A stretch of 64,000 bases of DNA from Candidatus Doudnabacteria bacterium (lineage in GTDB: Bacteria; Patescibacteriota; Doudnabacteria; UBA920), in assembly GCA_031291995.1 (NCBI GenBank), contig JARLHZ010000025.1, positions 91,965 to 155,964 of the forward strand, written 5' to 3'. The notes below the pieces were generated by a model that saw only the letters and a program-made list of their open reading frames with translations, was not told the DNA's origin and made no database searches. Positions 12,181-63,963 of this stretch are shown piece after piece. Position 1 is the first letter of the stretch. Each line of letters starts with the position of its first letter. A program made the translations under genes and the position numbers.

Positions 12181-12185
12181 ATGGA

Positions 12186-42596: not shown

Positions 42597-42697
42597 ATAG
42601 TGATTAGAAAAGCTTAAACATTACTGCTTAAACGTACAACACCTAATGTTCACGTCACAAATTGTTTCAAGAAGCGCTAATTTTCGAAAAAATTAAC
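42566..42697. repeat. Direct repeat copy A (about 132 bp), preceded by intrinsic-terminator hairpin ATACCCTTGCGGGTAT
   Basis: TTTTTACATGC...TTAACGGCTAAATAGTGATTAGAAA...ATTACTGC...ACAACACC.AATGT...GCTAATTTTCGAAAAAATTAAC shared with 43866..43999. Confidence 0.8.
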
Positions 42698-42704: not shown

Positions 42705-43751
42705 TTAATTTGTAGGTTTTTCTACTCTGTCGACCATAAATTTGACCGCCTCATTGGTATTTGTTGATTCGATAATAATATTTGGGTGTTTGGTTTGGAA
42801 TACTCGATAAATTTCGTCTACAAAAGCTTGTCCGACCGTCGGTACCTTATCGTAGTCAAAAACAATATGTCTAAATTTTTCAAGACCAGTCAGCACTCTC
42901 CTAGCTTGAGATCTCGAAACATAAATCGTCCCCATGGTATAAAGTTTTACCTGGACTTTAGTCTTGTCAAAATTTGGTTCATTCGGATCGGATGAAAAAG
43001 CTTTAAAGGTATCGCTTAAATGTTTTGTAGTATCTAGCGATATTTTAAAGGTAACGCGGGTGCCCTTTTTCAGACGCGGCAGTTCTCCAACAAAAATATC
43101 GGGAATGAGGTTATCTATCCTAAGCCGAAACTCAAAGCTTTCCAAGCTAAAAACATCTGCGACCTTGGAAGTGAAAAAAATCCCTTCGCCTGAATGAGCC
43201 TGTGGCTCAGTGGTAGTTTTTCCTTTCAGTAAATCTTGGATAGCTTCCAGTTCCGATTTTAGTCCGCGTTTTCTCATGACATTTTTAAATACGCCTACAC
43301 CAAAATCACTCACAACAAAGCAGAGGTTATTGTCTTCTTTTGCAACCTCAATTTCTATAAATTTTGACTTGGAATGTTCAATTGCATTATTTAGCATTTC
43401 AGAAAAAGCGTAATCAAAAATGCTGCGAATGCTTTCTTCAGCTTTAACGATGAACGGCAAGCGTCGGTTAATATCATTTAAAACCTCGTGTTCTTTTAAG
43501 GAGCTATTGCTGAGACGCAGTTTGATTTTATTGCCCAAGCTTTCCTGTGCCTCATCCTGTTTTCCTGGCAACACATAAAACGTGTTGGTGGTCTGACCTA
43601 CCCTCACGATCTTTCCTTCTTGGGCTAGACTGTTCAGCACTCTGCTCACATACTGCCTGGAGTACTGATTCTTTAAGGCTGTTACGGTATCACTGGTTTT
43701 AAGCCGTTTTTTCTCCTCTATTAGCCTTAATATGGTCTTTTTTATATCCAT
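42705..43751 (-). CDS. wHTH - GHKL (histidine-kinase-like) ATPase - DUF4325/STAS-like domain protein
   Basis: N-terminal wHTH; N-box LNNAIEHSKSK and G-box VSDFGVGV; C-terminal HIVFDYDKVPTVGQAFVDEIYRVF resembling DUF4325. Confidence 0.6.
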   Translation of the reverse strand: MDIKKTILRLIEEKKRLKTSDTVTALKNQYSRQYVSRVLNSLAQEGKIVRVGQTTNTFYVLPGKQDEAQESLGNKIKLRLSNSSLKEHEVLNDINRRLPFIVKAEESIRSIFDYAFSEMLNNAIEHSKSKFIEIEVAKEDNNLCFVVSDFGVGVFKNVMRKRGLKSELEAIQDLLKGKTTTEPQAHSGEGIFFTSKVADVFSLESFEFRLRIDNLIPDIFVGELPRLKKGTRVTFKISLDTTKHLSDTFKAFSSDPNEPNFDKTKVQVKLYTMGTIYVSRSQARRVLTGLEKFRHIVFDYDKVPTVGQAFVDEIYRVFQTKHPNIIIESTNTNEAVKFMVDRVEKPTN

Positions 43752-43828: not shown

Positions 43829-43865
43829 TTGCGCTCAGACATCAAAAAAACCACCCGTGAGGGTG

Positions 43866-43999
43866 GTTTTTACATGCGATTTTAACCTTTAACGGCTAAA
43901 TAGTGATTAGAAATAGTTAAGCATTACTGCCTAACAGCACAACACCGAATGTAATGCGTCAAAGTTGATTCAAGAACGCTAATTTTCGAAAAAATTAAC
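43866..43999. repeat. Direct repeat copy B (about 134 bp), preceded by terminator hairpin AACCACCCGTGAGGGTGGTT
   Basis: Aligned by eye to copy A, roughly 80% identity. Confidence 0.8.
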
Positions 44000-51359: not shown

Positions 51360-54323
51360 CTATATGCTCATTTTATTAAGTACGTGCTCAAACACGCGCT
51401 CTTGCACAAACTTTTTTAATTCCGGATTTTGGTCGAGTTTTTGGTACAGACTAAAATGATTATCCAATACTCCAACAAGCTCGTCCTGAAAGAGTTGGTC
51501 AAATTTTAACTTGGCTGCGTCTTTGCTGTTATTTTTTACGGAGCCTTTTAATACATGGTTATTTACCAAACGCGAACTTAAATCGTTTAAAATTACCCGG
51601 TCGCCGTCGTTAAAATTTGTTCCGTAGCGCTCATTAATTTCTTTAATGATTCTTGAAAGAGGGTCTATTGCCGCCTCGGCAATACGGCCTTCCCCTCCCC
51701 CGCCCATAGGATAAATAATTCCCTCTGTATTGTCTAATTGTATATTTACCTTGCCCTTGTTCTCAATCCTGTAAGTTTCCATATCTATTGCATCCAATAC
51801 CTCCACCGGCAACGGATTTTCCCGCTTAGGCGATTTTTTGATTAAAAATTTTAAAAAGATGAACAGCTTTTCCAGTTGTGGATCTTTAAAAGTAATTATT
51901 TGGGAAATAAAGGCATACTTTTTTAAATATTCCGCAACCGTGGTTTTAAAGCTTTCCATTTCTTCTTCTGTCAGGTTCTCGTCATTTATCCTGGCTACCA
52001 CATTGTCAATAATATGGTTAAGTTTATCCGGCGTTGCTCCACCCAAGTATTCTTCAGTAAACCCATTGATTTCAAAGTCGGTAAAAAATTTAAACCCACG
52101 CACTTCGCGTTCCAAATTGTGCAAAATGTTCGGGTCCGTCGCTTCAGACAGCACCGTGGTAGTGTAATACGGTTGGAAAGCTTCTTTAATGTCGTCCGTC
52201 TCATTTACGAAATCCAAAACAAAAGTTTCGTCTTTGCCGTACGTAGTTCTGTTTAAACGCGAAAGTGTTTGAACCGCTCTAACATCGCTGAGTTTTTTGT
52301 CCACATACATAACCGTTAGCATAGGCTGGTCAAAACCGGTTTGAAATTTTTCCGCCACAATCAAAAATTTATTTTCGTCCTTCTTAAATTCTTCAGCCGT
52401 TTGGCTTTCCGGGACTTTATTCATTTGACCTTCGGTATATTCCAGTTTTGTATCCACGTCTTTTACAGTGCCCGAAAAAGCCACCAAGGCTTTATGATTG
52501 TAGCCTTTTTCTTTAAGGTATTTATCAAAAGCAATTTTGTAACGAACCGCGTGCAAACGGGACTTTGTAACCACCATTGCTTTTGCGCGTCCCGCAATGA
52601 GTAATGCAATTTTTTCTTCAAAATGTTCCACCATAATAGCCGTTTTTTTATCAATGGCATGCTCATGGCGCTCTACATAGCCAATCATAAGCCTTTGGGC
52701 TTTTTTCTTATCAAATTCCGGGTCGTCTTCTATTTTTTTGAGTAAGCCAAAATAAGTTTCGTAAGTGGTGTAGTTTTTTAGCACATCCAAAATAAACTTT
52801 TCTTCTATGGCCTGCTTCATGGAATACAAAGAAAACGGAATAAATTTACCGGTAACCGCGTCCTTGTCTCCAAATAGTTCCAACGTCTTCTGCTTTGGCG
52901 TGGCGGTAAAAGCAAAAAATGAAAGGTTCGGGGAACTGACCTTTCTAGCCTTCATGCGCTCAATAATTTGGTCTTCAACTGTTTTAAAAACATGCTCTTC
53001 TTTTTCGGCTTGCTTTTCGGCTTCATCTAAAGTTAATACCTGACGTAAATCCGCCGCGGACTCCCCGGACTGTGAAGAATGCGCTTCGTCTATAATTACC
53101 GCAAATTTTTTTCCTTCAACTTTTTCTATTGTCTCTACAATAACCGGGAATTTCTGCAAAGTGCTTGTTAGTATTCTAACCCCGGTTTCCAAGCCCTCGC
53201 GCAGTTCGGCGGATGTTTCCACGTGCTTAACCAAACCTTTAACCTGGCTAAAATCTGTTACCGTATTAGAAAGTTGCCTGTCTAAAACCCGGCGGTCAGT
53301 TACTACAATAACGCCGTCAAATACATTTTTATTGGAATCGTCATGAAGTTCTGCAAGACGGTGCGCCACCCAGGCAATGGTATTGCTTTTGCCGGACCCG
53401 GCGCTATGTTGAATTAAATAATTTTTGCCGGTTCCATTTGCCTGCGCGTCTACAACAATTCTCTTTACGGTTTCTAATTGATGATACCGTGGAAAGATTA
53501 ATTTTTCTTCCTTTTTCTTTTTGCCGTTCTTGTCTTCTTTTTCTTCCGTCACTTCCTGAATGAAATTGCCTATTAAATCAAACACACTGTCCTTGGAAAA
53601 AATATCTTCCCACAAATAATGCGTTTTGTATTTTCCTTCCGGCGCTTCCGGATTTTTAGATGAGTTTTTGTCGCCTTTATTAAATGGCAAGAAAACCGTG
53701 GAAAGACCCGAAAGCCGGGTGGTCATAAACGCCAAGTCTGTATCTACCGCAAAATGAGTAAAGCAGCGCTTAAAAGATAAAAGTTTTTCTTTATTGTCGC
53801 GGTCGGTTTTATATTGTGATATGGCGTTAATAACATTTTGCCCGGTAAACTGATTTTTAAGCTCTATTGTAAACACCGGTAAGCCATTTACAAAAATAAC
53901 CATATCTATGGAATTTTCATTCTTGCCACTATATTTAACCTGCCTCATAACACTTAAAATATTCCCGGCATAATCGGCAACCGTCTCCGGGTTCCTGTCA
54001 TTCTGCGGTTTAAAATAAGCAAGCTTAACCCGCACTCCCCTGTCTGTAATGCCCTCACGAAGCACGCTTAACAAACCACGCGAACTAATTTCTTCATCCA
54101 CCCGAGCCAAAAACCTCTCCGCGACATCTTCCCCATACTGCTCAACCAGCTTCTCCCAAGCCTCATTTTGAGTCTCCAAAACAAACTCCAAAACCAGCTC
54201 TGCATCCATACAGAGCTCTTTATTAAAAGTTGAATTTAATCTAGATTTATACTTATGAAGCTTTATCAGCTCCTGCTCTATAAATTCCTCAAAACCCGAT
54301 TCTTTAGTGTTAGATTTTGTCAT
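51360..54323 (-). CDS. hsdR: Type I restriction enzyme R subunit
   Basis: 987 aa; Walker A HSAGSGKSNT, DEAH box VIIDEAHSSQ, helicase C-terminal motifs, N-terminal nuclease region. Confidence 0.9.
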   Translation of the reverse strand: MTKSNTKESGFEEFIEQELIKLHKYKSRLNSTFNKELCMDAELVLEFVLETQNEAWEKLVEQYGEDVAERFLARVDEEISSRGLLSVLREGITDRGVRVKLAYFKPQNDRNPETVADYAGNILSVMRQVKYSGKNENSIDMVIFVNGLPVFTIELKNQFTGQNVINAISQYKTDRDNKEKLLSFKRCFTHFAVDTDLAFMTTRLSGLSTVFLPFNKGDKNSSKNPEAPEGKYKTHYLWEDIFSKDSVFDLIGNFIQEVTEEKEDKNGKKKKEEKLIFPRYHQLETVKRIVVDAQANGTGKNYLIQHSAGSGKSNTIAWVAHRLAELHDDSNKNVFDGVIVVTDRRVLDRQLSNTVTDFSQVKGLVKHVETSAELREGLETGVRILTSTLQKFPVIVETIEKVEGKKFAVIIDEAHSSQSGESAADLRQVLTLDEAEKQAEKEEHVFKTVEDQIIERMKARKVSSPNLSFFAFTATPKQKTLELFGDKDAVTGKFIPFSLYSMKQAIEEKFILDVLKNYTTYETYFGLLKKIEDDPEFDKKKAQRLMIGYVERHEHAIDKKTAIMVEHFEEKIALLIAGRAKAMVVTKSRLHAVRYKIAFDKYLKEKGYNHKALVAFSGTVKDVDTKLEYTEGQMNKVPESQTAEEFKKDENKFLIVAEKFQTGFDQPMLTVMYVDKKLSDVRAVQTLSRLNRTTYGKDETFVLDFVNETDDIKEAFQPYYTTTVLSEATDPNILHNLEREVRGFKFFTDFEINGFTEEYLGGATPDKLNHIIDNVVARINDENLTEEEMESFKTTVAEYLKKYAFISQIITFKDPQLEKLFIFLKFLIKKSPKRENPLPVEVLDAIDMETYRIENKGKVNIQLDNTEGIIYPMGGGGEGRIAEAAIDPLSRIIKEINERYGTNFNDGDRVILNDLSSRLVNNHVLKGSVKNNSKDAAKLKFDQLFQDELVGVLDNHFSLYQKLDQNPELKKFVQERVFEHVLNKMSI

Positions 54324-54433
54324 AATCTTATAAAATACTTATAACGGTTACATAAGAAAGGCCTATATTTATTGCATTTTTTTGATAATTTTTCTAAAAT
54401 TGGTTTAACTTGTTACATAAGATAGTTTAAAAA

Positions 54434-54462
54434 TTGACAGGCGGGATACATTCGTTTACAAT
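54434..54462 (+). promoter_or_regulatory. Consensus sigma70-type promoter TTGACA-N17-TACAAT (plus strand)
   Basis: TTGACA 54434-54439, 17-nt spacer, TACAAT 54457-54462; AGGTG RBS and ATG at 54482 follow. Confidence 0.45.
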
Positions 54463-54541
54463 AGGTATATGCAGGTGCTTGATGGCCATTGAGCCATTAA
54501 GTATGCGGGCATACATTGAATGTATACCCCGCAGGCCTGCT

Positions 54542-55207
54542 TTATCTCCATTTTACTCTCCATTCGTTGAACCGGCTATTGCCCACGGCAAGCCGGATTT
54601 TTTGTACCTCCGTAGCTAATCGGCCTTTTATTTTATCGGAACCTTTATAAACCGAACTGCCAAGCAAAACATCAGCCATTTGAACTAATAATACGCCATG
54701 GCTGTCCACTTGCAAAACATCCCACAGCTGAGGAACAACTGCCGGAAGTGTAGAAATAGAATGGGTCGGTGCCTTTTTTGGCTGCCTTAAATAATCCGCG
54801 ATTAAGGTTGTCTTTTCTTCAGCTTTTAAATTTTTTTGAAGCAGCATTTTAATATAACGCAAATAACATTCCCAGGATTCCAAATAGTCTTTCGGCGCCT
54901 GGAATTTAACGTCATTTAAGTCTACAAAAAAAGAACAAAATCTCCAATTGGGTTCGTTTAACAAAATTTTCAAACAATTTAAATAATAAGGCAGAGATTT
55001 TTGCGTAACGGAGGTAAATTTAAATTCAACCCTACTACTGTCTTTTTTTAGCGCGTTGCATAACCCTTCATACTCGCTATGAAGCGCGGTAATAAGTTTG
55101 TCCGGGAACGAATGGACAATCGCGCCCACCGCAAAATACCTTACAGCCCGATTCTGCACATTAAGCGTACCCGACTCATCCAAAAAACAAAAAGTTGGTT
55201 TAATCAT
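54542..55207 (-). CDS. DUF3800-like protein
   Basis: N-terminal CFLDESGT (DESG start typical of DUF3800); 221 aa; embedded between hsdS and hsdR. Confidence 0.5.
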   Translation of the reverse strand: MIKPTFCFLDESGTLNVQNRAVRYFAVGAIVHSFPDKLITALHSEYEGLCNALKKDSSRVEFKFTSVTQKSLPYYLNCLKILLNEPNWRFCSFFVDLNDVKFQAPKDYLESWECYLRYIKMLLQKNLKAEEKTTLIADYLRQPKKAPTHSISTLPAVVPQLWDVLQVDSHGVLLVQMADVLLGSSVYKGSDKIKGRLATEVQKIRLAVGNSRFNEWRVKWR

Positions 55208-56521
55208 TTATACTTTCACTTTCCCCGTAACCACATTGGAAATTAGGGAAGATTTAAATTTGTTTAATAATTCAATTGATTTTTCTGTTTTTTCTAAAAT
55301 AGCATTAAATGTTGAAATTTTTTCATCTAAGAACTTAATAATTAAATTTTGTTCGTCTTTGCTTGGATAAATCATTTCCAACGAACTTAAGTCAAAAGGA
55401 GTGATTGCTGGGTAGCCAATGCCTTTTGAATTAAGAATGACTTGACTAATAAATCTATCGGACTGTAAGTAATAAAAAAGGTATTTTGGCAATAAGTTTT
55501 TACCAGGAGTTAATACGGCAAAACCAGTAGATGCAATAGTATTTGTATCGAGTTTATCAAAATAAGCAATGGCCTTTAAGTAAGTTCTAACTGTAGCGAT
55601 TATTGAATCGCCAACACTCACAACTCTACGAGCCCTACTTGGTGCTTTTTCAAAAGTAATTTCATTTTCTATATTTGACGCCTCTTCTCCATCCACAGAC
55701 CCAATGTCAAAATATTTAAAAGAGAAGTCGGGATCTGTGTTCTCTGAAAGAGATTTTTTATTCATTTGGGAGACTCTTTTTATTTTTTCAATATTCCATC
55801 CTTTCGGAATTTTGCCAATCCATTCGACATCGCTTTCAACATACTCAGCTTTTGGGTCAAGGCCTTTTGACACGGCATTATTAATAACAGCCGTGCGTTT
55901 TTCGCGCAGGAGTTCTATTAACTTTTGCTTTTTTTCAATAATTTGGTCAATGGTTGCAATTTTTTCGTCGAGATAATTTGCAATTTTTTCTTGCTCATTA
56001 ATATTTGGGATTAATGTTGGCAAATATTTAAAATTGCTAAAATCTAGCGTTTGTCTAACCCCTCCACCCATCCCATAATAAACTTTCTGAATGTCGTAGG
56101 CGTGAAATAAATAGTAGGTGAATTTTGAGTTTAATTTTTCACTCAATTGCAACGCTAAATAAGCTGAAGTAATTATACCTGGCTCATCAAAGTTCATATA
56201 GCCGACTCTTAAACTTTTTTTGTCATTTTGTAAGTCAGTCAGACGAAATACAATATTCCCTTTATTTATAACTTGATAAGTATTGAATGATTCTGGTAGT
56301 AATCCCTCGTTTGAGTCGATATCTTTTTGAATTATTTTACCATAGCTTAATGATAAGAGATTATTACATTTTCCCTCAATATTATTTTGTTCATTTTCAA
56401 AAGCGACTGATCGCAAGGGTGTTACATCCCAATCTTTAGGAATTTTGCCAATCCACTCAACGCCCGAGTTTTTGTATTCGGGATATTTTTTATATTCTTT
56501 TTTTAGCTGTAATTTAGGCAT
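55208..56521 (-). CDS. hsdS: Type I restriction-modification specificity subunit (two target-recognition domains)
   Basis: 437 aa; two TRDs separated by conserved helical spacer (IDQIIEKKQKLIELLREKR) and C-terminal repeat of the same. Confidence 0.85.
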   Translation of the reverse strand: MPKLQLKKEYKKYPEYKNSGVEWIGKIPKDWDVTPLRSVAFENEQNNIEGKCNNLLSLSYGKIIQKDIDSNEGLLPESFNTYQVINKGNIVFRLTDLQNDKKSLRVGYMNFDEPGIITSAYLALQLSEKLNSKFTYYLFHAYDIQKVYYGMGGGVRQTLDFSNFKYLPTLIPNINEQEKIANYLDEKIATIDQIIEKKQKLIELLREKRTAVINNAVSKGLDPKAEYVESDVEWIGKIPKGWNIEKIKRVSQMNKKSLSENTDPDFSFKYFDIGSVDGEEASNIENEITFEKAPSRARRVVSVGDSIIATVRTYLKAIAYFDKLDTNTIASTGFAVLTPGKNLLPKYLFYYLQSDRFISQVILNSKGIGYPAITPFDLSSLEMIYPSKDEQNLIIKFLDEKISTFNAILEKTEKSIELLNKFKSSLISNVVTGKVKV

Positions 56522-57732
56522 ATTTGTAAATATTGTGGAAAACGGTACGGGGTCAAGACATTTTGTGATTGAGCCTGTGGAAAAGTTTCCATTAAGGGAT
56601 TAAAGAGGTTGTCCAGGATTAACATCGGAAAGCGGCAGATCTGGTCGGCATTGTATATGCCAAGAGAGTCAAGTTTTTCTTTAGGCGACATTCCGTTCAT
56701 GCCAATACCGTCAGAGGCGCGACGGTTGTAGTAAAAATTCCAGTACTGTCCTTCTATCAGAAAATCGGAGTTACTGTTAATGTGTTCCCCCCTGGGGCAG
56801 TAAAATTCTTCGTCGTCGATCCTGTGCGTCCGTTCCACCAGGTTGTTCTTCCACTTTGCTCCGCCTGTCCACTCGGCCGCGGCTCCCAGCGGCTTTAACT
56901 GTTCGTTCCAATCCGCAAGCTTCCTCTCTGAAGCGGAAAAGAATTCCGCGCCGCCGTCCATTCGCGTGTTAATATTGTTTTGTATGTTATGGGCTCTCAG
57001 CCAGAGAATTACGGTTTGTAAAAACTTTAATCCATAAAAAGAACTTAAGGTATACGACCAGGCCAAGAATCTGGTTTTGGTCTTGGCGTCAACAATCGTC
57101 CATTGGTATTTGGGCAGAGCAAGCTTTTGGCTTTTAAACTTCTGATAAATTTCTTTCGGCAAAGCGTGTTGGTCTAAAATTTCCTTGGTATCGTACTGTA
57201 ATTGCTCAAATGCCCCAATTTCCGCATAGTTGTACAAGGCCCTGCGTTCCCCGTTAACGGTCCTAATCTTTTTCCCTTTTAGCCCCAGTCTTTTGTAAAC
57301 TCCCTTGATTTTGGAAAAAGTAAAGGCCTCCATGTCCAGCCCGGCTATTTTAAAATGCTTGTAGAGGCGTTTAAAGCCGTAGTTTAATTTCAAATGTTTC
57401 TCTGTGATGGTTTTTTCGGTATTTTCGTCAGCCGTCCGCTTGTTGGTCTTGGGCCTTCTGGACTCAAACTTTAAAAATTCAAACAGCTTTAAATCATCAG
57501 TTTTAATCTTTTCGTTGCAGGACAGCAGGCAAAGGACTTTAGAGTCAGACTGATTTTTACAAAGTTTAATAATTTCATTAACGGTATTTTTATGGCAGCC
57601 GATATCCCGGGCAATGTCTTTTTGGGGGATGTGGTCGGCAAAGTAATGGCGGGCGATTTTCAGCCGGGTGATGATCGGCCCTTCGGTTTTGCAATTGTCC
57701 TTGTAACTCATTACAATACTTTTACAGGTCAT
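56503..57732 (-). CDS. DDE (rve-type) transposase, IS481/IS30-like single-ORF
   Basis: N-terminal HTH; WTIVDAK, RMDGGAEF, NLVERTHRIDDEEF = D,D,E catalytic triad spacing; stop overlaps hsdS start by 19 nt. Confidence 0.65.
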   Translation of the reverse strand: MTCKSIVMSYKDNCKTEGPIITRLKIARHYFADHIPQKDIARDIGCHKNTVNEIIKLCKNQSDSKVLCLLSCNEKIKTDDLKLFEFLKFESRRPKTNKRTADENTEKTITEKHLKLNYGFKRLYKHFKIAGLDMEAFTFSKIKGVYKRLGLKGKKIRTVNGERRALYNYAEIGAFEQLQYDTKEILDQHALPKEIYQKFKSQKLALPKYQWTIVDAKTKTRFLAWSYTLSSFYGLKFLQTVILWLRAHNIQNNINTRMDGGAEFFSASERKLADWNEQLKPLGAAAEWTGGAKWKNNLVERTHRIDDEEFYCPRGEHINSNSDFLIEGQYWNFYYNRRASDGIGMNGMSPKEKLDSLGIYNADQICRFPMLILDNLFNPLMETFPQAQSQNVLTPYRFPQYLQICLNYS

Positions 57733-57787
57733 TGTCGTATTCTGTTTTAGTTATTACTCGTAACTAAATTATACGGCAATGGCTTGT

Positions 57788-57982
57788 TTAATTTTCAGCC
57801 GGAGCTGATCCGCCTGTGGCGGAAATGTGAAGGCCTTTATCGACTTTAAAGGTTTTAAGGTATTTGAGGTAATGACGCTGTCTTTTCCTTACTTTTCCCA
57901 AAAACCGCTTAAATTCTACCTTGGCGGCGATCACATTATGTATTGTATCCTCTATTAATATTGTGGAAAACAAGCTTGACAA
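57788..57982 (-). CDS. Hypothetical small protein (64 aa)
   Basis: ORF only; between transposase and NYN gene. Confidence 0.2.
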   Translation of the reverse strand: MSSLFSTILIEDTIHNVIAAKVEFKRFLGKVRKRQRHYLKYLKTFKVDKGLHISATGGSAPAEN

Positions 57983-58069
57983 ACGTTCATATAATAGTTA
58001 AAATAGAAACGATCGAAAGATCACGAACTCTATAGCTTAAGGGCTCCGCAAGGAGTCCTTTTTGCATGG

Positions 58070-58834
58070 TTATGAACCAGCTGGTTTTGGACCATCCATT
58101 TCTCTGTTCCAACAAATAAAATTTTTAATTTTCTGAATATCGTAAATAAACAAGCCTTGTGAGGTTAGAGACGCTAATTCACTGGCCACTCTTCGAGGAG
58201 TGGAAAAAATAAAGACCTTTTTACCATTTTGGAGCAACTGCTCAATAGGCCCCGCAAAATCGCTGTCTCCGCTCCAAAGCACGAAACAATCCGCTTCCTT
58301 TTTCTCAAAAGCAAGCATCATGTCCCGGCCAATTTCTACATCAAAATTGCATTTGCGATCTTCAATAAAGTAAGTCCCGAGTTTGTTTAACTCTCCCAGT
58401 TGCGCGTTTAGGTACTCAACCACTTCAACCTTTAACCGCCTTAAAAGCGAAGGCCGAATAAAACTTTTAAGGATATCAGTAGATGACGGAGAAATACTGG
58501 AGACATCAATAGACTTTTGCATAATTTTTACAGGTTTTGTAATACAGCCAGGTCCAAAAGCCTTAGTAAGGTCCTTATTTTCGTGTTCAGACTCTTTATC
58601 GCCAATTAAAGTACCGTTATAAATCTTAATTTCCTTGACAGCGCCAAAGGAGTCAAAAAACTGTTTGACCCTAAAAGGCTCTACATGCCAACCCAACTTA
58701 TCGGCCCACGGTCTAACATTGGCAAAATCGATATAAATTTTCGTAGAAACGCTTAAAAGCGTATCCATCTCGGAAATTCTTTCCGGGAACATTTGCGCAA
58801 GTAAGTCAATTTTTACCGTTTTGGCTTTAAACAT
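58070..58834 (-). CDS. NYN-domain (LabA/PIN-like) protein
   Basis: YIDFANV ... ADCFVLWSGDSDFAGPIEQLLQNGKKVFIFS matching NYN acidic-residue pattern. Confidence 0.75.
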   Translation of the reverse strand: MFKAKTVKIDLLAQMFPERISEMDTLLSVSTKIYIDFANVRPWADKLGWHVEPFRVKQFFDSFGAVKEIKIYNGTLIGDKESEHENKDLTKAFGPGCITKPVKIMQKSIDVSSISPSSTDILKSFIRPSLLRRLKVEVVEYLNAQLGELNKLGTYFIEDRKCNFDVEIGRDMMLAFEKKEADCFVLWSGDSDFAGPIEQLLQNGKKVFIFSTPRRVASELASLTSQGLFIYDIQKIKNFICWNREMDGPKPAGS

Positions 58835-59001
58835 AATAATGTGCTATTAGTAATGGCTGGCAATAATAACTTGGAATATGCTATGGTGTCCCTCCGGAGA
58901 ATCCGGAACTTAAGCTGTAAATAACCATTTTCCTAGACGCCGCCATTCTTGAATACCTAAGGGGATGTGATTCCTTGTCGCCCTCCCCTTTTTTATTTAT
59001 A

Positions 59002-60996
59002 TTATAGCTGCTTTAATAAATCCAATAGCTCGTTTTCCACCTTTTCTATATCTGTCTCTATGGCTTCAAGACTCCTTGGGGCTTCGTATTTGTAGAAGTG
59101 GCGGGTAAAGGGAATTTCGTAGCCGACAATACCAACTTTGCCGTCTTTGTGGTCGACTATCGATGTGTTTATCCAGACATCAGGAACGTAAGGCTTAACC
59201 TCTTTTTCAAAATATTGTTTAATGTCCATTTCGTAAGGCACATTTTCATAGTCGCGCAGTTCGCTGTCGGGTTCTATATTACCGTCTTTGTCGGTGCATA
59301 TAACAGCATTTTCATCACGCTCGCCCAGAGCATCTACAACAATTTTAATAATTGTAGCGCTTTTTTTAAGATGTTTAAAATACGTTTGTATTTTTTGGAC
59401 AAACAATTCCCTACTGTTTATGGGAGCTTTAAAATCCTTGGCTAACTGGCCAAAAATAGTAATAACTTCCTCCATTTCTTTGGCTGGAAGTTTTTTAAAG
59501 GCGTTTTCGTGTGATATTTTGTCCAGGGAGTCTTTAGTAACTTCAAACTTAAGCTTTAGCGGCCGTTCAATAGTTATTTGTCTGTAAGCAAAATCCGTGG
59601 TTATAAAGATTTTAGAGAATTCACCCTCCTCGTACTTTTCGTATAGCTCAACAATTTTCTTTTTAGACTCCGCGTCTATTTCATGTCTCTTACTACCAAG
59701 ACTTTTCCGAGTTTTTTTAAAAAACGTACGGCCGTCTATAAGTTGAACTTTGCCTTTTCTTTCCTTAGATTTTCTGTTGGTAACAAACCATAGGTAAGTG
59801 TTTATGCCTGTGTTATAAAAAAGTTGGTCCGGCAATGCTACAATGGCTTCCAATAAGTCTTTTTCCAGTATCCACCTGCGGATTTCGCTTTCGCCACTTC
59901 CGGCGTCTCCGGTAAACAGTGGAGAACCATTATGAACAATAGCTATGCGGGAGCCACCGTCTTTTTCCGGTTTCATTTTGGAAATAAGGTGCTGTAAAAA
60001 CAAAAGCTGGCCATCGGAAATACGGGGCGTACCCGCGCCAAACCTGCCGGCGTAACCGCGGGCGGCTTCGCGTTCTACAGAGTCTTTGTCTTTTTTCCAG
60101 TCAACCCCATAGGGTGGATTGGAAAGCCCGTAGTCGAAAACCTCGCCAAAAAATTGGTCGTTGGCAAGCGTGCTCGCTTTGGAATGGTCTTTCTCTCCGC
60201 CGCGAATAAGGTCAGGGTCGTCACCCTTTATAAGCATGTCGGACTTAGCCATGGCGTAGGTAATGGAGTTTAACTCTTGACCGTAGAGAAAGATATCGGC
60301 CTCCTTGTTAATTTTAGTAAGAATGTAATCTTTAGACACACTTAACATTCCACCGGTGCCGCACGCAGGATCATATATTTTTTTAATAACATGGGGTTTT
60401 TGAAGATCCTTAATGTCCGGTGAAAAAAGCAATTCAGTCATAAGTTCTATTACATCGCGCGGGGTGTAGTGTTCTCCGGCAGTTTCATTGGACATTTCAG
60501 AAAATTTGCGGAGCAACTCTTCAAAAATATGCCCCATTTGGTAGTTGTCCACCTTGGAAGGATGAAAAGCAACGCCGTTTAATATTTGAATAATTTCGAA
60601 TAATAAATTTCCGCCTTCTAATCTCTCTAGCTGTTTGTTAAAATCAAACTTTTCAAAAATATCCTGAATATTTTTGCTATAACCGTTTATATACTGCTTA
60701 AAGTTTTTTGCCAAATGTTTTGGTTCGCCAAGGATCGTTTTAAAATCATAATCGGAAATATTATAAAAAGCCGTGCCCGAAGTTTTTTTAAGAATTGGGT
60801 CCAGATCGTTTATTTTGCCTTTGTATTCGTTGTACTTTTCCAAAACTTTTGGTTTTGTATCCGCGAGAATAGAATCCAGGCGTTTTAAGACCACCAGCGG
60901 AAGTATTACGTCCTGGTATTCGTGCTGTTTCCAACCTCCGCGCAAGATATCGGCAATATTCGAGATCATTGATGTTTTTTGGCTAAAATTTTCCAT
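59002..60996 (-). CDS. hsdM: Type I restriction-modification DNA methyltransferase subunit
   Basis: HsdM_N-like start, GEHYTPRDVIELM, motif I IYDPACGTGGML, motif IV NPPYG; 664 aa with C-terminal extension. Confidence 0.9.
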   Translation of the reverse strand: MENFSQKTSMISNIADILRGGWKQHEYQDVILPLVVLKRLDSILADTKPKVLEKYNEYKGKINDLDPILKKTSGTAFYNISDYDFKTILGEPKHLAKNFKQYINGYSKNIQDIFEKFDFNKQLERLEGGNLLFEIIQILNGVAFHPSKVDNYQMGHIFEELLRKFSEMSNETAGEHYTPRDVIELMTELLFSPDIKDLQKPHVIKKIYDPACGTGGMLSVSKDYILTKINKEADIFLYGQELNSITYAMAKSDMLIKGDDPDLIRGGEKDHSKASTLANDQFFGEVFDYGLSNPPYGVDWKKDKDSVEREAARGYAGRFGAGTPRISDGQLLFLQHLISKMKPEKDGGSRIAIVHNGSPLFTGDAGSGESEIRRWILEKDLLEAIVALPDQLFYNTGINTYLWFVTNRKSKERKGKVQLIDGRTFFKKTRKSLGSKRHEIDAESKKKIVELYEKYEEGEFSKIFITTDFAYRQITIERPLKLKFEVTKDSLDKISHENAFKKLPAKEMEEVITIFGQLAKDFKAPINSRELFVQKIQTYFKHLKKSATIIKIVVDALGERDENAVICTDKDGNIEPDSELRDYENVPYEMDIKQYFEKEVKPYVPDVWINTSIVDHKDGKVGIVGYEIPFTRHFYKYEAPRSLEAIETDIEKVENELLDLLKQL

Positions 60997-61008
60997 ATTT
61001 AGATTTTG

Positions 61009-62145
61009 TTATTTGGTAAAGAGGTCAATATATTTTGTTAAGTAGAATATCCTGTCTTTTTTAAAACCCGTTTTTTCGGAAAATAAACCAAGTCTTTCAA
61101 AATCAGTGGCAATAGCTGATGCAGTTGGGAATGTAACAGAAAGCATGGACTCAATATCTCTAATAGTTACCACAGGCTGGGAAAATAACAGCCTTAACAG
61201 CTCTTTGCCCAGTTTTTGGCGTTTAACGCCCATACCTGTTTCAATCGCGTTTTCGTATTTTTTGCGAAGATCAATAATTTTTTCCAAGGTTTCTCTTGAG
61301 CCTTTGGCGGTTTCCAAAACGCCCGTAAGAAAAAACCGTATCCATTGCTCTATGTCGTTGCTTTCACGAACGCGCGAAAGGCCATCGTAATATTGCGGAC
61401 GATGTTTTTCAAAAAAATCAGATATATACAAAGTAGGCTTTTGTATAATACCTAGACTTACCAAATGCAGAGTAATTAATAGCCTGCCTACACGCCCATT
61501 GCCGTCTAAGAATGGGTGAATTGTTTCAAACTGGTAATGCGAAATTGCAATTTTAATTAAGTCCGGAATATCAATATTTTTGTTGTGCCAAAATTTTTCC
61601 AGGTCGCTAAGTAATTCTGCAAGTTCTTCGTGATGCGGCGGAATAAATACGGCATCCTTTAAAGTTGCGCCGCCCAGCCAATTTTGGCTTTTGCGTATTT
61701 CGCCCGGCATTTTGGAAAAACCCCGAACGCTTGAAAGCAAAACTTTGTGAGTATCTTTTACCAACCGCATTGAAAGAGGCAGCTTTTCCAATTCTTTGAT
61801 GGAATAATTTATGGCTTTAACGTAATTTTGTACCTCTTCCCAGTCATCTCGTTTTTCGGGCTTAATTTCAAGCTGCGGCAATAGAGCTTCGTCTAATTTT
61901 GTGCGAGTTCCCTCTATTTTGCTGGAAACTGTAGCTTCTTTGGCAATGTGCATTTTTATAAAAAAGTCCACATCGGGGATAAGTTTGGAAAAAGCATTAA
62001 GTTCTCCAAGATAGCGCATGGCATCCGAAAGCAGCAGATTAATGCGTTTGTCTGCCCATTCAAAGTTAGTATTTACAACAGAAGGTTGGAAACTCTTATA
62101 TCCAAGCTGTTGTTTGTATGTTCCTGCCTTATATTTATATGCCAT
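61009..62145 (-). CDS. Fic-family protein with C-terminal wHTH-like region
   Basis: [12 protein letters not shown] active-site motif; SSKIEGTRT inhibitory-type motif; 13 nt upstream of hsdM, same strand. Confidence 0.85.
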
Positions 62146-62257
62146 AGGCCAAGTATAGCACGTAATATAGTCTTGTCAAATTAAATATTTAGGCTTTAAC
62201 CTTTAATATAGTAATAATGAATTAAAACTCAATTTACAATTCCCCCCAAAGCTTACC

Positions 62258-62289
62258 ATATCAAAAGCCCCGGCTTTTGTACGGGGCTT
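62258..62289 (-). terminator. Intrinsic terminator (minus strand)
   Basis: AAGCCCCG-loop-CGGGGCTT followed on the minus strand by TTTTGAT. Confidence 0.5.
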
Positions 62290-62928
62290 GAGAAATTGGC
62301 TTTCAAAGGAAAACGAGATTTGGGTTTACTCGCAAGCCGGGGGGAAGGTTACAGCTTTTATTTTTGATTCCTCAGGCAGCCTACCGCCTTTGAAATGGAC
62401 TGGCGTCCAACCCGACGCCGCTTGTCCAATACACTCAGCAAGACAATTGCCTCTGCAGAAGTTTTGTCTCACTTTGTTGAATGTAGGGTGATTGCAGTTT
62501 ATTTGCACCCGCTTTAAGAACAATACCTTTAATTAAGGTTCCGGGAACCGCCTTACTCCACCCTATTGTGTTTCGGGCATGCGTTACTTCTTGTTCTATG
62601 AGAAGTTGTTCCGCCATTTCCTATGAAAGCCGACACTAAATAAGACGTGTGCGGAAATTTTTTGTTACATTTTTCCTAAAGCTTCTTCGGTTTCAAACAT
62701 TCCAATATAGGTGTGCTTTTGCGCTTCAAAAGCGGCAAAAAGTTCCGTTTCCGCCAGCGGCACTCCCCGCTACGCGACAAAAAGCTCGACAAAAAGGGGT
62801 CTGGAGCTATTATTTAAAATTCGATAGGAGAGTTTAAATCAGGTAGCGTCAAAGCGTCGGAACCCCGACGCAGGCTGGTCGGGGCTGGTTGAACTCCGAC
62901 GTTCCAGATAAAGCCCTGGAAGTCGGAG

Positions 62929-62963
62929 CAGGCCGATGACCTACTCCTTACCATGGAGTTGCT
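62929..62963 (-). repeat. Partial duplicate (about 35 nt) of the tRNA-Thr D-loop/anticodon-arm region
   Basis: GATGACCTACTCCTTACCATGGAGTTGCTCTACCA identical to 63101-63135 inside the tRNA. Confidence 0.8.
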
Positions 62964-63074
62964 CTACCAACCCCGACGCCCCTTTGGGGGTCGGGGCTCC
63001 GACCTTTGACGCCGCGAGGTTAAAGCTGGCAGCGTCAAAGCGTCGGAGCTGAGCAACCAATAAAAAAATTTTCC

Positions 63075-63150
63075 TGGAGCCGTTGATCGGAATTGAACCG
63101 ATGACCTACTCCTTACCATGGAGTTGCTCTACCAGCTGAGCTACAACGGC
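63075..63150 (-). tRNA. tRNA-Thr (anticodon GGU), CCA encoded
   Basis: Minus-strand cloverleaf: acceptor GCCGTTG/CAACGGC, D-arm GCTC-AGCTGGTA-GAGC, anticodon arm ACTCC-ATGGTAA-GGAGT, T-arm ATCGG-TTCAATT-CCGAT, discriminator U, CCA. Confidence 0.8.
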
Positions 63151-63174
63151 ACTAAGAAAATTTTTTTATTAACA

Positions 63175-63963
63175 TCAGCCAATTAAATTTGAGGCTTGGC
63201 CCATGGCTTGGGCTTTTTGGGTTTGGCCGGCTTTTTGGTAGGCGGCGCTGGCCGCGGAGTAGTATTTGGCCGAGGGCTCGAGGGAGGCCGCTTTTTCAAA
63301 GTTTACGGCGGCTTCCTGGGCGTTCCCGTCCTGTTCCAGGCACAGGCCTAGGTTATAATAGCGGTTTGGCTGGGTGGAATCAAGTGCCAGGGAAGCCTTG
63401 TAACTTTCGGCCGCTTTATGGAAATTTTTAAGCTGATAGTGGCAAAAGGCCAGCCGCGCGTGGTAATCGGGATTGGCCGGGCGGTGGTTGGTTAAATAAA
63501 TATAGACATCGGAAGCGTCGCTAAAATTTTCCCGGGAAATATAAAATTTTCCCAAAGCGTCGTAATGGTCAAAGTTAGCCGGCTGAAGTTTGATGTTATT
63601 GAGGTAGTATTGTTCATTGCGAACCTCGCTGGTCGTAAGCGGTTTTGGCGGAGCCGGTTTGGCCGCGCCGGTAAATTTATCGCCAAAGATTTTTTTCATC
63701 TGATAGCCGGTAACGGAATGCGGCCTGAGGTCTTTGGCTTCGAGCACAAAATTCCACAGTTTCTTTAGCCACAGCCGGAGTGTGCTGCGGATTTTGGAAA
63801 GTTCGATAACCGGCAGGCCTTTGGCCGCCAATTTTTGGCCGGATGACGCTTCCGCGCTGCCGCTTTGGCCCGCGGCGGCTTCGGGTAGTCTGCGGATAAT
63901 AATCAACAGCATCCCTAACACCGCCAGAATGAAAATTATATTGGGAATAATTTGGTAAGACAA
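63175..63963 (-). CDS. Membrane-anchored TPR-repeat protein
   Basis: N-terminal TM; C-terminal TPR-like repeats (YYNLGLCLEQDGNAQEAAVNFEKA...). Confidence 0.6.
   Translation of the reverse strand: MSYQIIPNIIFILAVLGMLLIIIRRLPEAAAGQSGSAEASSGQKLAAKGLPVIELSKIRSTLRLWLKKLWNFVLEAKDLRPHSVTGYQMKKIFGDKFTGAAKPAPPKPLTTSEVRNEQYYLNNIKLQPANFDHYDALGKFYISRENFSDASDVYIYLTNHRPANPDYHARLAFCHYQLKNFHKAAESYKASLALDSTQPNRYYNLGLCLEQDGNAQEAAVNFEKAASLEPSAKYYSAASAAYQKAGQTQKAQAMGQASNLIG

What the first reader, a model, noticed from the sequence alone, without database searches (positions are those of the whole stretch)
62280..63160. Island boundary: tRNA-Thr(GGU) next to a partial tRNA duplicate embedded in an about 800-bp ORF-free, GC-rich, hairpin-dense spacer
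The defence/mobile island ends about 900 bp from a tRNA-Thr gene. Between them is an about 800-bp stretch with no credible ORF, and a 35-nt exact copy of the tRNA D-loop/anticodon-arm lies only about 110 bp from the intact gene. The stretch is locally GC-rich (62820-63060) and holds several perfect stems. GCGTCGG-AACC-CCGACGC occurs twice in a larger AGCGTCAAAGCGTCGGA repeat. The others are CTCCGACGTTCCAG/CTGGAAGTCGGAG and CCCCGAC...GTCGGGG. tRNA genes are classic integration sites and partial tRNA copies are scars of integrase-mediated insertion. The other boundary may be the direct repeats at 42.5/43.9 kb. The spacer could alternatively encode a structured ncRNA, since a minus-strand terminator sits at 62258-62289.
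Basis: partly seen in the sequence, partly recalled or inferred. Interest (0 to 1): 0.55.

Follow-up and report, generated by a model that had tools for sequence, protein, structure and literature searches.

The report
Palindromic hairpin elements beside tRNA-Thr
The GC-rich hairpins and the partial tRNA copy next to this tRNA-Thr gene are copies of a small palindromic "selfish DNA" element, found in several lineages of ultra-small (CPR) bacteria, that have riddled a dead second copy of the tRNA; the same element also sits in frame inside essential genes such as gyrase, and I could find no published description of it.

Summary
tRNA-Thr(GGU) lies at 63075-63150 (minus strand). An exact 37-nt internal copy lies 105 nt away. 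The 930 nt beyond the tRNA have no ORF. A 228-nt block of 60% GC is made of perfect hairpins.

The reading as an integrase scar is only partly right. This tRNA is an integration hot spot in related Doudnabacteria, and synteny with relatives stops at about 63059. But the two tRNA copies bracket 128 nt, not the island. The copy is an internal segment (positions 17-53). No recombinase is nearby.

The hairpins belong to a dispersed family of 40-80-nt double hairpins: CCCCGAC..GTCGGGG, a C or T linker, then TCCGAC..GTCGGAG. At least 120 stretches were found in low-GC metagenome contigs, many from groundwater. Labelled hosts are Wolfebacteria, Jorgensenbacteria-like and Patescibacteria. Family members:
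- insert without target duplication;
- lie in frame in GyrA, SecA, UvrA and ValRS, with a filled and an empty site between 97%-identical GyrA genes;
- recur in the D-loop of tRNA fragments beside intact tRNAs (14% against 2% expected).

The window repeats that pattern. The element resembles REP dimers and Rickettsia RPEs. No paper describing it was found.

The parts
63075..63150 (-). Intact tRNA-Thr(GGU) at the ancestral position, 25 nt after the TPR gene
   Evidence: ARAGORN. Rfam tRNA, 70 bits. Identical to the tRNA of relative L006.
63058..63074 (-). tRNA trailer (GGAAAAUUUUUUUAUUG). It pairs with the 5' leader as a 27-nt inverted repeat. It is the last sequence shared with relatives.
   Evidence: Inverted repeat I1. 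blastn homology to L001-L005 ends at 63059.
63049..63057 (-). Remnant of the 5' acceptor and D-arm of a second tRNA-Thr copy (GTTGCTCAG; the intact gene has GTAGCTCAG), ending exactly at the D-loop insertion site
   Evidence: Spliced alignment. Repeat D10. Same junction as in L074, L066 and L144.
62971..63048 (+). Module B, a canonical double-hairpin element of 78 nt. Its first hairpin is CCCCGAC-G-CCCCTTTGGGG-GTCGGGG. The linker is C. Its second hairpin is TCCGAC, a 9-bp inner stem, C, then GTCGGAG. It sits in the D-loop of the tRNA copy, between positions 15 and 16.
   Evidence: Matches the family architecture, including the unpaired G and C.
62933..62970 (-). tRNA-Thr fragment, positions 16/17-53. 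37 nt are identical to the resident gene; 39 nt are identical to the CAGTTGG allele of relative L007.
62863..62928 (+). Module A, atypical. Its first hairpin (CCCCGAC-G-CAGGCTG-GTCGGGG) and second hairpin (CTCCGAC..GTCGGAG with a 6-bp inner stem) are separated by 9 nt (CTGGTTGAA, the reverse complement of TTCAACCAG), which may be T-loop remains of the tRNA copy.
   Evidence: The spliced alignment places GTTCAA and TTCCGA in tRNA order, but weakly (20 of 500 shuffles score as well).
62830..62861 (+). Truncated third copy of the second hairpin (loop plus 3' arm), 28/32 identical to 63016-63047. It marks the left edge of the GC-rich block.
   Evidence: Repeat D2. Self-comparison.
62228..62829 (.). 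Orphan AT-rich spacer. It is not coding, not shared with relatives and not part of the Fic-RM cassette. It holds one possible decayed hairpin junction at 62398-62423.
   Evidence: Repeat D6.
62258..62296 (-). Terminator-like hairpin on the minus strand (GCCCCG..CGGGGC, then UUUUGAUAU), just upstream of the Fic promoter
   Evidence: Inverted repeat I7. Sequence.
62152..62179 (-). Sigma-70-like promoter of the Fic gene (TTGACA, 16 nt, TG, TATACT). It lies inside the DNA shared with Fic-RM cassettes on other metagenome contigs (L031, L032), which starts at 62227.
61009..62145 (-). Fic/DOC family gene, the first gene of the mobile Fic-type I RM cassette (to 51360)
   Evidence: Pfam. 80-94% identical homologues with CPR and non-CPR labels. 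About 80% DNA identity to L031 and L032.

Best explanation
The 228-nt GC-rich block (62830-63057) is a small graveyard. It holds a second, dead copy of tRNA-Thr, of which roughly positions 5-64 are recognisable. That copy has been invaded by two and a half copies of a dispersed double-hairpin palindromic element.

Each element is a dimer of one unit, C[C/T]CCGAC-G-(variable palindrome)-GTCGG[G/A]G, followed by an inverted copy of the unit. This resembles a REP dimer or REPIN.

Shown:
- The family is dispersed in low-GC metagenome contigs; the labelled hosts are CPR lineages.
- It inserts precisely, with no target-site duplication.
- It is tolerated in frame in essential proteins.
- It is strongly enriched at one place in tRNA DNA, the D-loop after A14-R15. 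There it is found only in truncated tRNA copies lying next to an intact tRNA.

Inferred:
- The element moves as DNA. It may use a single-strand hairpin intermediate cut by an HUH/Y1-type enzyme 3' of a TCAR-like target.
- Insertions in a single-copy tRNA survive only when an intact copy remains beside it. This would explain why each tRNA-linked copy comes with a partial tRNA duplicate.

The block lies at the edge of conserved synteny. On its other side are an orphan AT-rich spacer and a horizontally mobile Fic-type I RM cassette. The tRNA is a real accessory-DNA boundary, but the partial tRNA copy is not the attachment-site scar of that island.
For: In 113 of 130 matches the second hairpin closes, although the pattern did not ask for it.
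2. Structure is maintained. The linker base and the last base covary: C-G 80, T-A 13, T-G 1. An unpaired G occurs in the first hairpin (88/94) and an unpaired C in the second (90/94). The variable interiors form extra stems, 4.6 pairs against 0.6 in shuffles. All window hairpins fit this architecture.
3. Mobility. Wolfebacteria GyrA P0241 carries a 14-aa insert that the 97%-identical P0243, P0244 and P0246 lack. In DNA, the empty site AAACAAG|GCGAT is filled by exactly 42 nt, with no duplication.
4. In-frame tolerance. 43 of 108 modules lie in long open frames, and 31 of those 43 have lengths that are multiples of 3. Hosts include PurL, SecA, GyrA, RecG, ValRS, UvrA and SMC. The module is an extra 16-24 aa relative to solved ValRS and UvrA structures.
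5. tRNA link. 9 of 100 modules have strict acceptor and D-arm flanks, against 0.015% of random positions. 16 of 113 lie within 100 nt of an intact tRNA, against 2.2% expected (p=3.5e-9). Ten of eleven share the junction after position 15, in tRNAs Arg, Asn, Thr and Pro (tRNA-Lys L130 is the exception). L050 and L130 have the same order as the window: intact tRNA, then 15-25 nt, then a fragment with a module.
6. No module lies in an otherwise intact tRNA: 0 of 113 after excision.
7. L074 shows the same thing at a comparable TM-TPR-tRNA-Thr(GGU) locus on another contig.
8. No recombinase lies near the tRNA-linked modules.
Against: - No transposase was identified. The mechanism, including the origin of the partial tRNA duplicates, is inferred.
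- Copy number is low. There are only these copies in the 64-kb window and none in 238 kb of relatives' loci. That is unlike classical REPs.
- Evidence that the tRNA copy extends beyond the 37-nt core is weak (20 of 500 shuffles score as well).
- Module A is atypical: it has a 9-nt linker and the bulge of its second hairpin is on the other side.
- The search pattern fixed the outer stems, so their conservation is partly by construction.
- An older integrase event could still have created the tRNA duplicate that the elements later invaded.
- The locus adjoins an accessory region, and the far boundary of that region is unknown.
Confidence: 0.7

Rival explanations
1. Attachment-site scar. An integrase-borne island (or a series of them) integrated into tRNA-Thr and left a partial tRNA duplicate. 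The hairpins are incidental, or were part of the attP region.
For: - The tRNA is a proven hot spot in relatives. A large serine recombinase abuts the tRNA in L007 and L016-L022, and a tyrosine integrase follows it in L012.
- Synteny breaks at 63059.
- GC is lower from about 26 to 62 kb.
- The Fic-RM cassette is mobile.
- L012 also has partial tRNA-Thr copies.
- An old attachment-site duplicate could simply be the harmless target that the elements later hit.
Against: - The repeats are 165 nt apart and do not flank the island.
- The copy is internal (positions 17-53) and lacks the 3' end that tRNA attachment sites normally include.
- There is no other tRNA-Thr piece in 64 kb.
- There is no integrase or recombinase remnant at the junction.
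- From established knowledge, serine recombinases leave no long direct repeat.
- The same architecture recurs at a dozen or more tRNA loci with no recombinase in the DNA held for them, which is only 1-15 kb per locus.
Confidence: 0.15
2. A functional structured RNA on the minus strand, for example a tRNA-like domain flanked by hairpins, made from a transcript ending at the 62258-62296 terminator.
For: - Very stable fold (z -8.9).
- A terminator-like hairpin lies downstream.
- Base pairs covary across the family.
- The fragment contains a perfect tRNA anticodon arm.
Against: - No Rfam family matches, even with E-values up to 10.
- Both strands fold equally well, as DNA palindromes do.
- Family members occur in both orientations, inside ORFs and translated.
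- Relatives have nothing at this locus.
- A T-run after the tRNA probably ends tRNA transcription before the block.
Confidence: 0.07
3. Assembly artefact. The island was joined to the tRNA locus through the shared 37-mer.
For: Three Logan assemblies all break inside the repeat at 62967.
Against: - 128 nt of unique sequence lie between the two copies.
- Module B is contiguous with the conserved tRNA trailer.
- The left part (module A, spacer, Fic) is reproduced at 100% identity in three read sets.
- A 37-nt repeat would be easily spanned if the reads are of ordinary short-read length (about 150 nt); read lengths were not checked.
Confidence: 0.04
4. A second, functional tRNA-Thr gene carrying small introns in its D-loop and T-loop.
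For: - The pieces are in tRNA order.
- Patescibacteria do carry unusual tRNA introns (PMC13011429; L012).
Against: - No acceptor stem can be formed.
- ARAGORN finds no tRNA after excision, here or in any of 113 family members.
- No splicing system for such inserts is known in bacteria.
Confidence: 0.02

Closest known systems
REP sequences, their dimers (BIME, REPIN), and the GTAG/CGTC-tagged REP superfamilies (Di Nocera et al. 2013, PMC3733652)
   Same: - Short GC-rich imperfect palindromes.
- Organised as a dimer of a unit and its inverted copy, separated by 1 nt. That paper describes head-to-head dimers with 1-2-bp spacers.
- A CGTC motif at the foot of each unit.
- Occasional intragenic, in-frame copies in DNA-repair and tRNA-synthetase genes.
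   Different: - Low copy number per genome stretch.
- The CGTC lies inside the paired outer stem instead of being a free terminal tag.
- The outer stems are invariant while the interior is hypervariable yet always palindromic.
- Hosts are CPR bacteria.
- No RAYT or other transposase has been linked.
- Strong association with the D-loop of tRNA fragments.
Rickettsia palindromic elements (RPE; Ogata et al. 2000, from my own knowledge; RPE-4 and RPE-6 are classed as CGTC REPs in PMC3733652)
   Same: Selfish palindromic DNA in a reduced genome, inserted in frame in essential protein genes and translated as extra surface peptides. Presence and absence are patchy between close relatives.
   Different: - Shorter: 40-80 nt, against roughly 100-150 nt for RPE-1.
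- No sequence relationship was tested or is evident.
- A different bacterial radiation.
- The tRNA D-loop association is, to my knowledge, not an RPE feature.
IS200/IS605-family ends and their non-autonomous derivatives (PATEs), moved by HUH Y1 transposases
   Same: Hairpin ends, insertion without target-site duplication, and a preferred short sequence immediately 5' of the element (TCAR here).
   Different: - The element is only two abutting hairpins, with no room for the usual guide and cleavage-site geometry.
- The flank preference is partial (50-67% per position).
- No tnpA was found or looked for genome-wide.
GC clusters and 'byp' elements of yeast mitochondria (from my own knowledge)
   Same: GC-rich hairpin elements spreading in an AT-rich, reduced genome, including into coding regions.
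   Different: Byps are skipped by the ribosome. Here lengths are mostly multiples of 3 and reading frames stay open, so plain translation is the simpler reading.
tRNA-gene attachment sites of integrative elements (genomic islands, ICEs)
   Same: A partial tRNA duplicate beside a tRNA gene at the edge of accessory DNA. This very tRNA is used by recombinase-bearing elements in relatives.
   Different: The duplicate is internal, lies 105 nt from the gene, does not flank the island, has no integrase nearby, and is split by a dispersed repeat at the D-loop.

Membership tests
CPR double-hairpin element family (defined here) | First hairpin CCCCGAC-G-(inner stem)-GTCGGGG, directly followed by [C/T]TCCGAC-(inner stem)-C-GTCGGA[G/A] | tested here: met
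   Module B (62971-63048) fits in every detail. Module A fits except for a 9-nt linker and the side of one bulge.
CPR double-hairpin element family (defined here) | When tRNA-linked: it sits after position 15 of a truncated tRNA copy that lies next to an intact tRNA | tested here: met
   The window has GCTCAG|module|TTGGTAGAGC, 16 nt after intact tRNA-Thr. Ten other loci share the junction.
REP / REPIN (RAYT-associated) | Short imperfect palindromes arranged as inverted dimers | tested here: met
   Unit plus inverted unit, shown by the unpaired G (5' side) in the first hairpin and the unpaired C (3' side) in the second.
REP / REPIN (RAYT-associated) | Tens to thousands of copies per genome, mostly extragenic | tested here: inconclusive
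   The only copies in 64 kb are at this locus, and there are none in 238 kb of relatives. About 40% of family members are intragenic. No whole genome was available.
REP / REPIN (RAYT-associated) | Terminal GTAG or CGTC tag | tested here: inconclusive
   CGTC is present in each unit (C bulge plus GTC) but lies within the outer stem, not at a free terminus.
REP / REPIN (RAYT-associated) | A RAYT (Y1 transposase) gene in the same genome | not tested
   No Y1 transposase was seen among the window ORFs scanned, but ORFs in 1-25 kb and 36-40 kb were not scanned, and no whole genome was available.
Rickettsia palindromic elements (RPE) | Palindromic repeat inserted in frame in conserved protein genes, absent from orthologues | tested here: met
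   Shown for the family, not in this window: GyrA filled and empty sites, and ValRS and UvrA against solved structures.
Rickettsia palindromic elements (RPE) | Sequence homology to RPE-1 to RPE-8 consensus sequences | not tested
   No RPE consensus was available in the tools. The hosts are unrelated (CPR).
IS200/IS605-derived PATE | No target-site duplication | tested here: met
   An exact 42-nt insertion between AAACAAG and GCGAT. tRNA flanks are contiguous across the module.
IS200/IS605-derived PATE | Insertion 3' of a fixed tetra- or pentanucleotide | tested here: inconclusive
   The left flank prefers T-C-A-R (51, 61, 68 and 87 of 102) but the preference is not fixed.
tRNA attachment-site scar of an integrative element | The direct repeat contains the tRNA 3' end, and the two copies flank the inserted element | tested here: not met
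   The copy covers positions 17-53 only. The copies are 165 nt apart. There is no other copy in 64 kb.
tRNA attachment-site scar of an integrative element | An integrase or recombinase gene next to the attachment site | tested here: not met
   The genes next to the junction are Fic and HsdM. The only DDE genes lie at 28 kb and 44.7 kb. No recombinase remnant was found. The region beyond the window was not seen.
Known structured RNA families (Rfam 15) | Covariance-model match at or near the gathering score | tested here: not met
   Only the tRNA passes the threshold. The best other match in the region (Plastid-ycf2 on the antisense strand of the tRNA gene) and the best within the spacer or block (manA) both score about a third of their gathering thresholds.
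TIGR arrays (Tas-associated) | Regular array with box C/D motifs next to a Nop-domain Tas gene | tested here: not met
   Copies are dispersed singly, inside ORFs. No Tas-like gene was found among the 30 window ORFs scanned with Pfam; ORFs in 1-25 kb and 36-40 kb were not scanned. Description taken from PMC12045711.

The most novel reading that the evidence does not exclude
An undescribed family of 40-80-nt double-hairpin mobile elements, found here in several CPR/Patescibacteria lineages. It inserts without target duplication. It is tolerated in frame in essential genes such as GyrA, SecA, UvrA, ValRS and SMC. It has a specific affinity for tRNA D-loop DNA, where each surviving insertion is accompanied by a local partial duplication of the tRNA gene. 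If so, it would be the CPR counterpart of Rickettsia RPEs, with a new target (the tRNA D-arm) and possibly a new mechanism for making tRNA gene fragments, which are usually read as integrase scars.
Probability: 0.45. Interest if true: 0.72.

Novelty: new variant of a known kind. Interest (0 to 1): 0.6.

Why it matters
- Partial tRNA copies next to tRNA genes are routinely taken as footprints of integrases. Here at least a dozen such fragments, for five different amino-acid tRNAs, are tied to a tiny palindromic repeat instead. In CPR genomes the usual rule of thumb can therefore mislead island prediction.
- CPR bacteria have streamlined genomes of about 1 Mb, yet they carry selfish DNA inside gyrase, SecA, UvrA and a tRNA synthetase. 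This repeats the Rickettsia RPE story in a different reduced-genome radiation.
- Filled and empty sites between near-identical genomes could serve as natural markers for strain tracking.
- The conserved outer stems, combined with a free but always palindromic interior, give a clean substrate for finding the enzyme that moves these elements.

Tried and rejected
- **Rfam.** Searched at gathering score and with E-values up to 10. Only the tRNA passes; the rest are chance microRNA-type matches to hairpins, plus a manA match at a third of its threshold.
- **Pseudogene remnants in the spacer.** Pfam on all small ORFs, tblastn with the serine recombinase of L007 and tblastx against all relatives found nothing.
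- **Phage and plasmid collections.** Only tRNA-Thr matches in phages; nothing in plasmids.
- **First metagenome pattern.** The arm core GTCGGGGYTCCGAC(N)CTTTGACGC gave 0 hits. This particular 9-bp inner stem is private to this locus.
- **Viral contigs.** A looser module pattern and the 17-mer gave only chance hits in contigs of 59-69% GC. The family is not evident in IMG/VR.
- **CRISPR-transposon homing spacer.** I considered a 37-nt tRNA match flanked by repeats lying about 40 nt from the target. I rejected it because no Tn7-like or Cas genes turned up among the 30 ORFs scanned between about 25 and 64 kb and the flanks are not direct repeats.
- **TIGR arrays.** Rejected.
- **Group I intron.** The window block has no similarity to the intron-like insert of L012. 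Rfam does not detect that insert either, which agrees with PMC13011429.
- **Distal island boundary by synteny.** None of the relatives' downstream genes occurs in the window.
- **Source contig.** The TPR protein gave no exact-match contig, and the source genome was not among the genome-contig hits. The region beyond 64000 was therefore not seen.
Full report
**What is in the window**

ARAGORN and Rfam place tRNA-Thr(GGU) at 63075-63150 on the minus strand. It follows a TM-TPR protein gene (63175-63963).

An exact 37-nt copy of tRNA positions 17-53 lies at 62933-62969. It is 105 nt beyond the 3' end of the gene.

From the Fic gene start (62145) to the tRNA there are 930 nt without a credible ORF. 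The small ORFs have no Pfam hit even at E<=1. Translated searches against every related locus give only noise.

Only 62830-63057 is GC-rich, at 60% against 43.5% for the window. That block folds with z about -8.9 on both strands. The AT-rich remainder folds only marginally better than shuffles.

- The copy is 37 nt, not 35.
- GCGTCGGAACCCCGACGC occurs once. The 17-mer AGCGTCAAAGCGTCGGA occurs twice.

**Origin and neighbourhood**

The TPR protein is 100% identical to a protein of a Candidatus Doudnabacteria MAG on a 266,756-nt contig.

In related Doudnabacteria the order rpsB-tsf-TPR-tRNA-Thr is conserved. Homology to the window stops at about 63059, 16 nt after the tRNA.

What follows the tRNA differs between relatives:
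- an ECF sigma factor (L001-L005);
- VIT1 and TruB (L013-L015);
- a tyrosine integrase island (L012);
- a large serine recombinase whose last codons overlap the tRNA 3' end, with cargo that includes a Fic gene (L007);
- the same kind of recombinase with type IV secretion genes, that is, an ICE (L016-L020, L022).

The tRNA is therefore a real integration hot spot and a real edge of conserved synteny.

On the other side, Fic-HsdM-NYN-(unknown)-HsdS-DUF3800-HsdR is a mobile cassette. It is about 80% identical in DNA to loci on other metagenome contigs, where it follows RadC, and that homology starts at 62227. Close homologues of its Fic protein (80-94% identical) carry CPR and non-CPR labels.

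The stretch 62228-63057 belongs neither to the core nor to the cassette.

**Why the integrase-scar reading fails for the partial tRNA copy**

- The two copies bracket 128 nt, not the island.
- The copy is internal and lacks the tRNA 3' end.
- No other tRNA-Thr fragment exists in the 64 kb.
- The repeats at 42.5/43.9 kb form a direct repeat of about 150 nt around one gene and have no tRNA similarity.
- No integrase or recombinase lies at the junction, and there is no remnant of the relatives' recombinase.

A known ncRNA also fails: Rfam gives nothing at or near threshold.

**Anatomy of the GC-rich block**

Self-comparison resolves the block as follows, reading the plus strand:

| Coordinates | Content |
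|---|---|
| 62830-62861 | truncated hairpin arm |
| 62863-62884 | hairpin CCCCGAC..GTCGGGG |
| 62885-62893 | 9-nt linker |
| 62894-62928 | hairpin CTCCGAC..GTCGGAG |
| 62929-62932 | CAGG |
| 62933-62970 | tRNA fragment |
| 62971-62996 | hairpin CCCCGAC..GTCGGGG |
| 62997-63048 | hairpin CTCCGAC..GTCGGAG |
| 63049-63057 | CTGAGCAAC |

In tRNA sense this reads GTTGCTCAG | 78-nt double hairpin | TTGGTAGAGC...CATCGG. It is a tRNA-Thr copy with an insertion exactly in its D-loop.

Weaker matches in tRNA order (GTTCAA, TTCCGA) lie between the next hairpins. The spliced alignment is beaten or equalled by 20 of 500 flank shuffles.

**The hairpins are members of a dispersed family**

A pattern made only of the first hairpin plus the 5' arm of the second was run against the metagenome contigs. 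Almost all are on contigs of 0.3-0.5 GC, many of them from groundwater samples such as the Hainich wells.

In 113 of 130 matches the second hairpin closes with GTCGGAG, although the pattern did not require this. Flanks are unrelated between loci, so the 40-80-nt double hairpin is itself the repeated unit.

The architecture is strict:
- The linker base and the last base covary: C-G 80, T-A 13, T-G 1.
- The first hairpin has an unpaired 5' G (88/94). The second has an unpaired 3' C (90/94).
- The otherwise free interior of the second hairpin forms extra stems of many different sequences: 4.6 pairs against 0.6 in shuffles.

The module is therefore a unit followed by its inverted copy. The window's hairpins fit. 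Module B is canonical. Module A is atypical in its linker and in the side of one bulge.

Labelled hosts are Wolfebacteria, a Jorgensenbacteria-like genome, a 'Patescibacteria group' bacterium and, for the window, Doudnabacteria. A looser pattern found only GC-rich chance hits in IMG/VR viral contigs.

**The family is mobile and tolerated in proteins**

43 of 108 modules lie inside long open frames, and 31 of these have lengths that are multiples of three. The host genes include PurL, SecA, GyrA, RecG, ValRS, UvrA, SMC and a PilB-like ATPase. Relative to solved ValRS and UvrA structures, the module is an extra 16-24 residues.

The GyrA of a Wolfebacteria genome carries a 14-aa insert. GyrA proteins that are 97% identical lack it. 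A 73%-identical GyrA has an insert at the same site.

At the DNA level, the empty site ...AAACAAG|GCGAT... is filled by exactly 42 nt, CCCCGACGTCAAAGGGTCGGGGTTCCGACCAAAGCGTCGGAA, with no target-site duplication.

The 4 nt to the left of modules prefer T-C-A-R.

**The tRNA connection is recurrent**

- Nine of 100 modules have strict tRNA acceptor and D-arm flanks, against 0.015% of random positions.
- 16 of 113 lie within 100 nt of an intact tRNA, against 2.2% expected (p=3.5e-9).
- In ten of eleven resolved cases the junction is after position 15 (GCTCAG|, GTTCAA|), in either orientation, for tRNAs Arg (four anticodons), Asn, Thr and Pro. In tRNA-Lys (L130) it lies between positions 10 and 11.
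- After excising the module, no flanks ever reconstitute a tRNA: 0 of 113.

The element thus sits only in truncated copies, always beside an intact gene. Two arrangements occur:
- fragment 1-15 | module | 16-~23, then a spacer, then the intact tRNA (L042, L066, L074, L106, L109, L137, L139, L144);
- intact tRNA, then 15-25 nt, then a few nt | module | the rest of a copy (L050, L130 and this window).

L074 is a comparable TM-TPR-tRNA-Thr(GGU) locus on another contig, with tpiA instead of tsf upstream.

No recombinase homologue lies near these loci in the DNA held for them.

**Interpretation**

Shown:
- The block consists of family members plus tRNA-Thr pieces in tRNA order.
- The family inserts precisely and is polymorphic between near-identical genomes.
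- The arrangement of D-loop fragment beside an intact tRNA is a repeated outcome.

Inferred:
- Movement is as DNA, through a hairpin or single-strand intermediate. This rests on the absence of target duplication, the flank preference and the hairpin ends, as in IS200/IS605 and REP/RAYT systems.
- Survival of tRNA insertions requires that an intact copy remains. This would explain the partial duplicates.

Whether the duplication arises in the same event is unknown. An older integrase-made duplicate that was later invaded cannot be excluded, which is why that rival keeps 0.15.

**Comparison with what is known**

The closest kinds are REP dimers and REPINs, including the CGTC-tagged REPs and their intragenic copies (PMC3733652), and Rickettsia RPEs.

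Differences:
- low copy number;
- the CGTC lies inside the outer stem;
- invariant outer stems with a hypervariable palindromic interior;
- CPR hosts;
- the tRNA D-loop association.

Full-text searches found no paper containing these sequences or describing such an element in CPR. The library does not cover subscription journals. TIGR arrays, which are also found in CPR, are a different thing.

**Verdict**

The integrase-scar reading is only partly supported: the boundary is real, the scar is not.

Best explanation, at 0.7: a dead tRNA-Thr copy riddled by a REP/RPE-like double-hairpin element that is dispersed across several CPR lineages.

I rate it a new variant of a known kind, with interest 0.6.

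Noticed in passing
window 58852-58947 (+): Rfam DUF3800-V RNA motif (57.7 bits against a gathering score of 37.4). It lies between the NYN-domain gene and hsdM, on the strand opposite to the operon. A DUF3800 gene lies about 3.6 kb away at 54542-55207 (-), inside the type I RM cassette.
   Followed up: no
window 4815-4891 (+): tRNA-Ile with anticodon UAU (TAT), which is unusual for bacteria. The terminator 220 nt downstream (5112-5132) uses the same CCCCGAC/GTCGGGG stem as the repeat family, but as a single hairpin with a T-run.
   Followed up: partly
L007 10977-12473 (-); L016-L020 and L022, about 10883-12433 (-): Large serine recombinase genes directly abut tRNA-Thr(GGU) in related Doudnabacteria, and their last codons overlap its 3' end. 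In L016-L020 the recombinase heads an element with VirB4, TraG and pilin genes, that is, an ICE in a CPR genome.
   Followed up: partly
L012 5852-6296: A 5' half copy of tRNA-Thr, followed by a tRNA-Thr(GGU) gene split after position 36 by an insert of about 187 nt (5' exon ends in U, insert ends in G). ARAGORN and Rfam see neither the tRNA nor an intron. This fits the divergent group I introns at 36/37 of Patescibacteria tRNA-Thr reported in PMC13011429. A tyrosine integrase follows.
   Followed up: partly
window 51360-62227: The Fic-HsdM-...-HsdS-...-HsdR cassette is about 80% identical in DNA to loci on other metagenome contigs (L031, L032), but with different inserted genes: NYN, a 409-aa HTH-like protein and DUF3800 here, against 159-aa and 287-aa proteins in L032. 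The Fic protein is 80-94% identical to homologues labelled as various CPR lineages and one labelled Tenericutes.
   Followed up: partly
window 42546-42697 and 43846-43999: A direct repeat of about 150 nt (81-100% identical in pieces) flanks a single gene (42705-43751, HATPase plus a STAS-like DUF4325 domain). It looks like a one-gene cassette or a local duplication, and is unrelated to the tRNA.
   Followed up: partly
L154 (GyrA of P0262) and L135: The double-hairpin element occupies the same GyrA codon position in two Wolfebacteria lineages that are only 73% identical, and is absent from seven lineages in between. This means either repeated insertion at one site or repeated precise loss.
   Followed up: partly
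P0278, P0330, P0334, P0346, P0348: Several GyrA proteins homologous to the Wolfebacteria GyrA are 1,200-1,340 aa long and carry intein domains (PF14890, PF14528). GyrA in these lineages therefore hosts both inteins and the palindromic element.
   Followed up: no
L049, L051, L093, L106, L110: Some family members carry a further complete CTCCGAC..GTCGGAG hairpin nested in the loop of the second hairpin. This suggests that elements insert into each other or grow by hairpin extension.
   Followed up: no
window 62398-62423: GGCGTCCAACCCGACGCC in the AT-rich spacer resembles the junction hairpin GCGTCGGAACCCCGACGC at 62854-62871. It may be a decayed older copy of the element.
   Followed up: no
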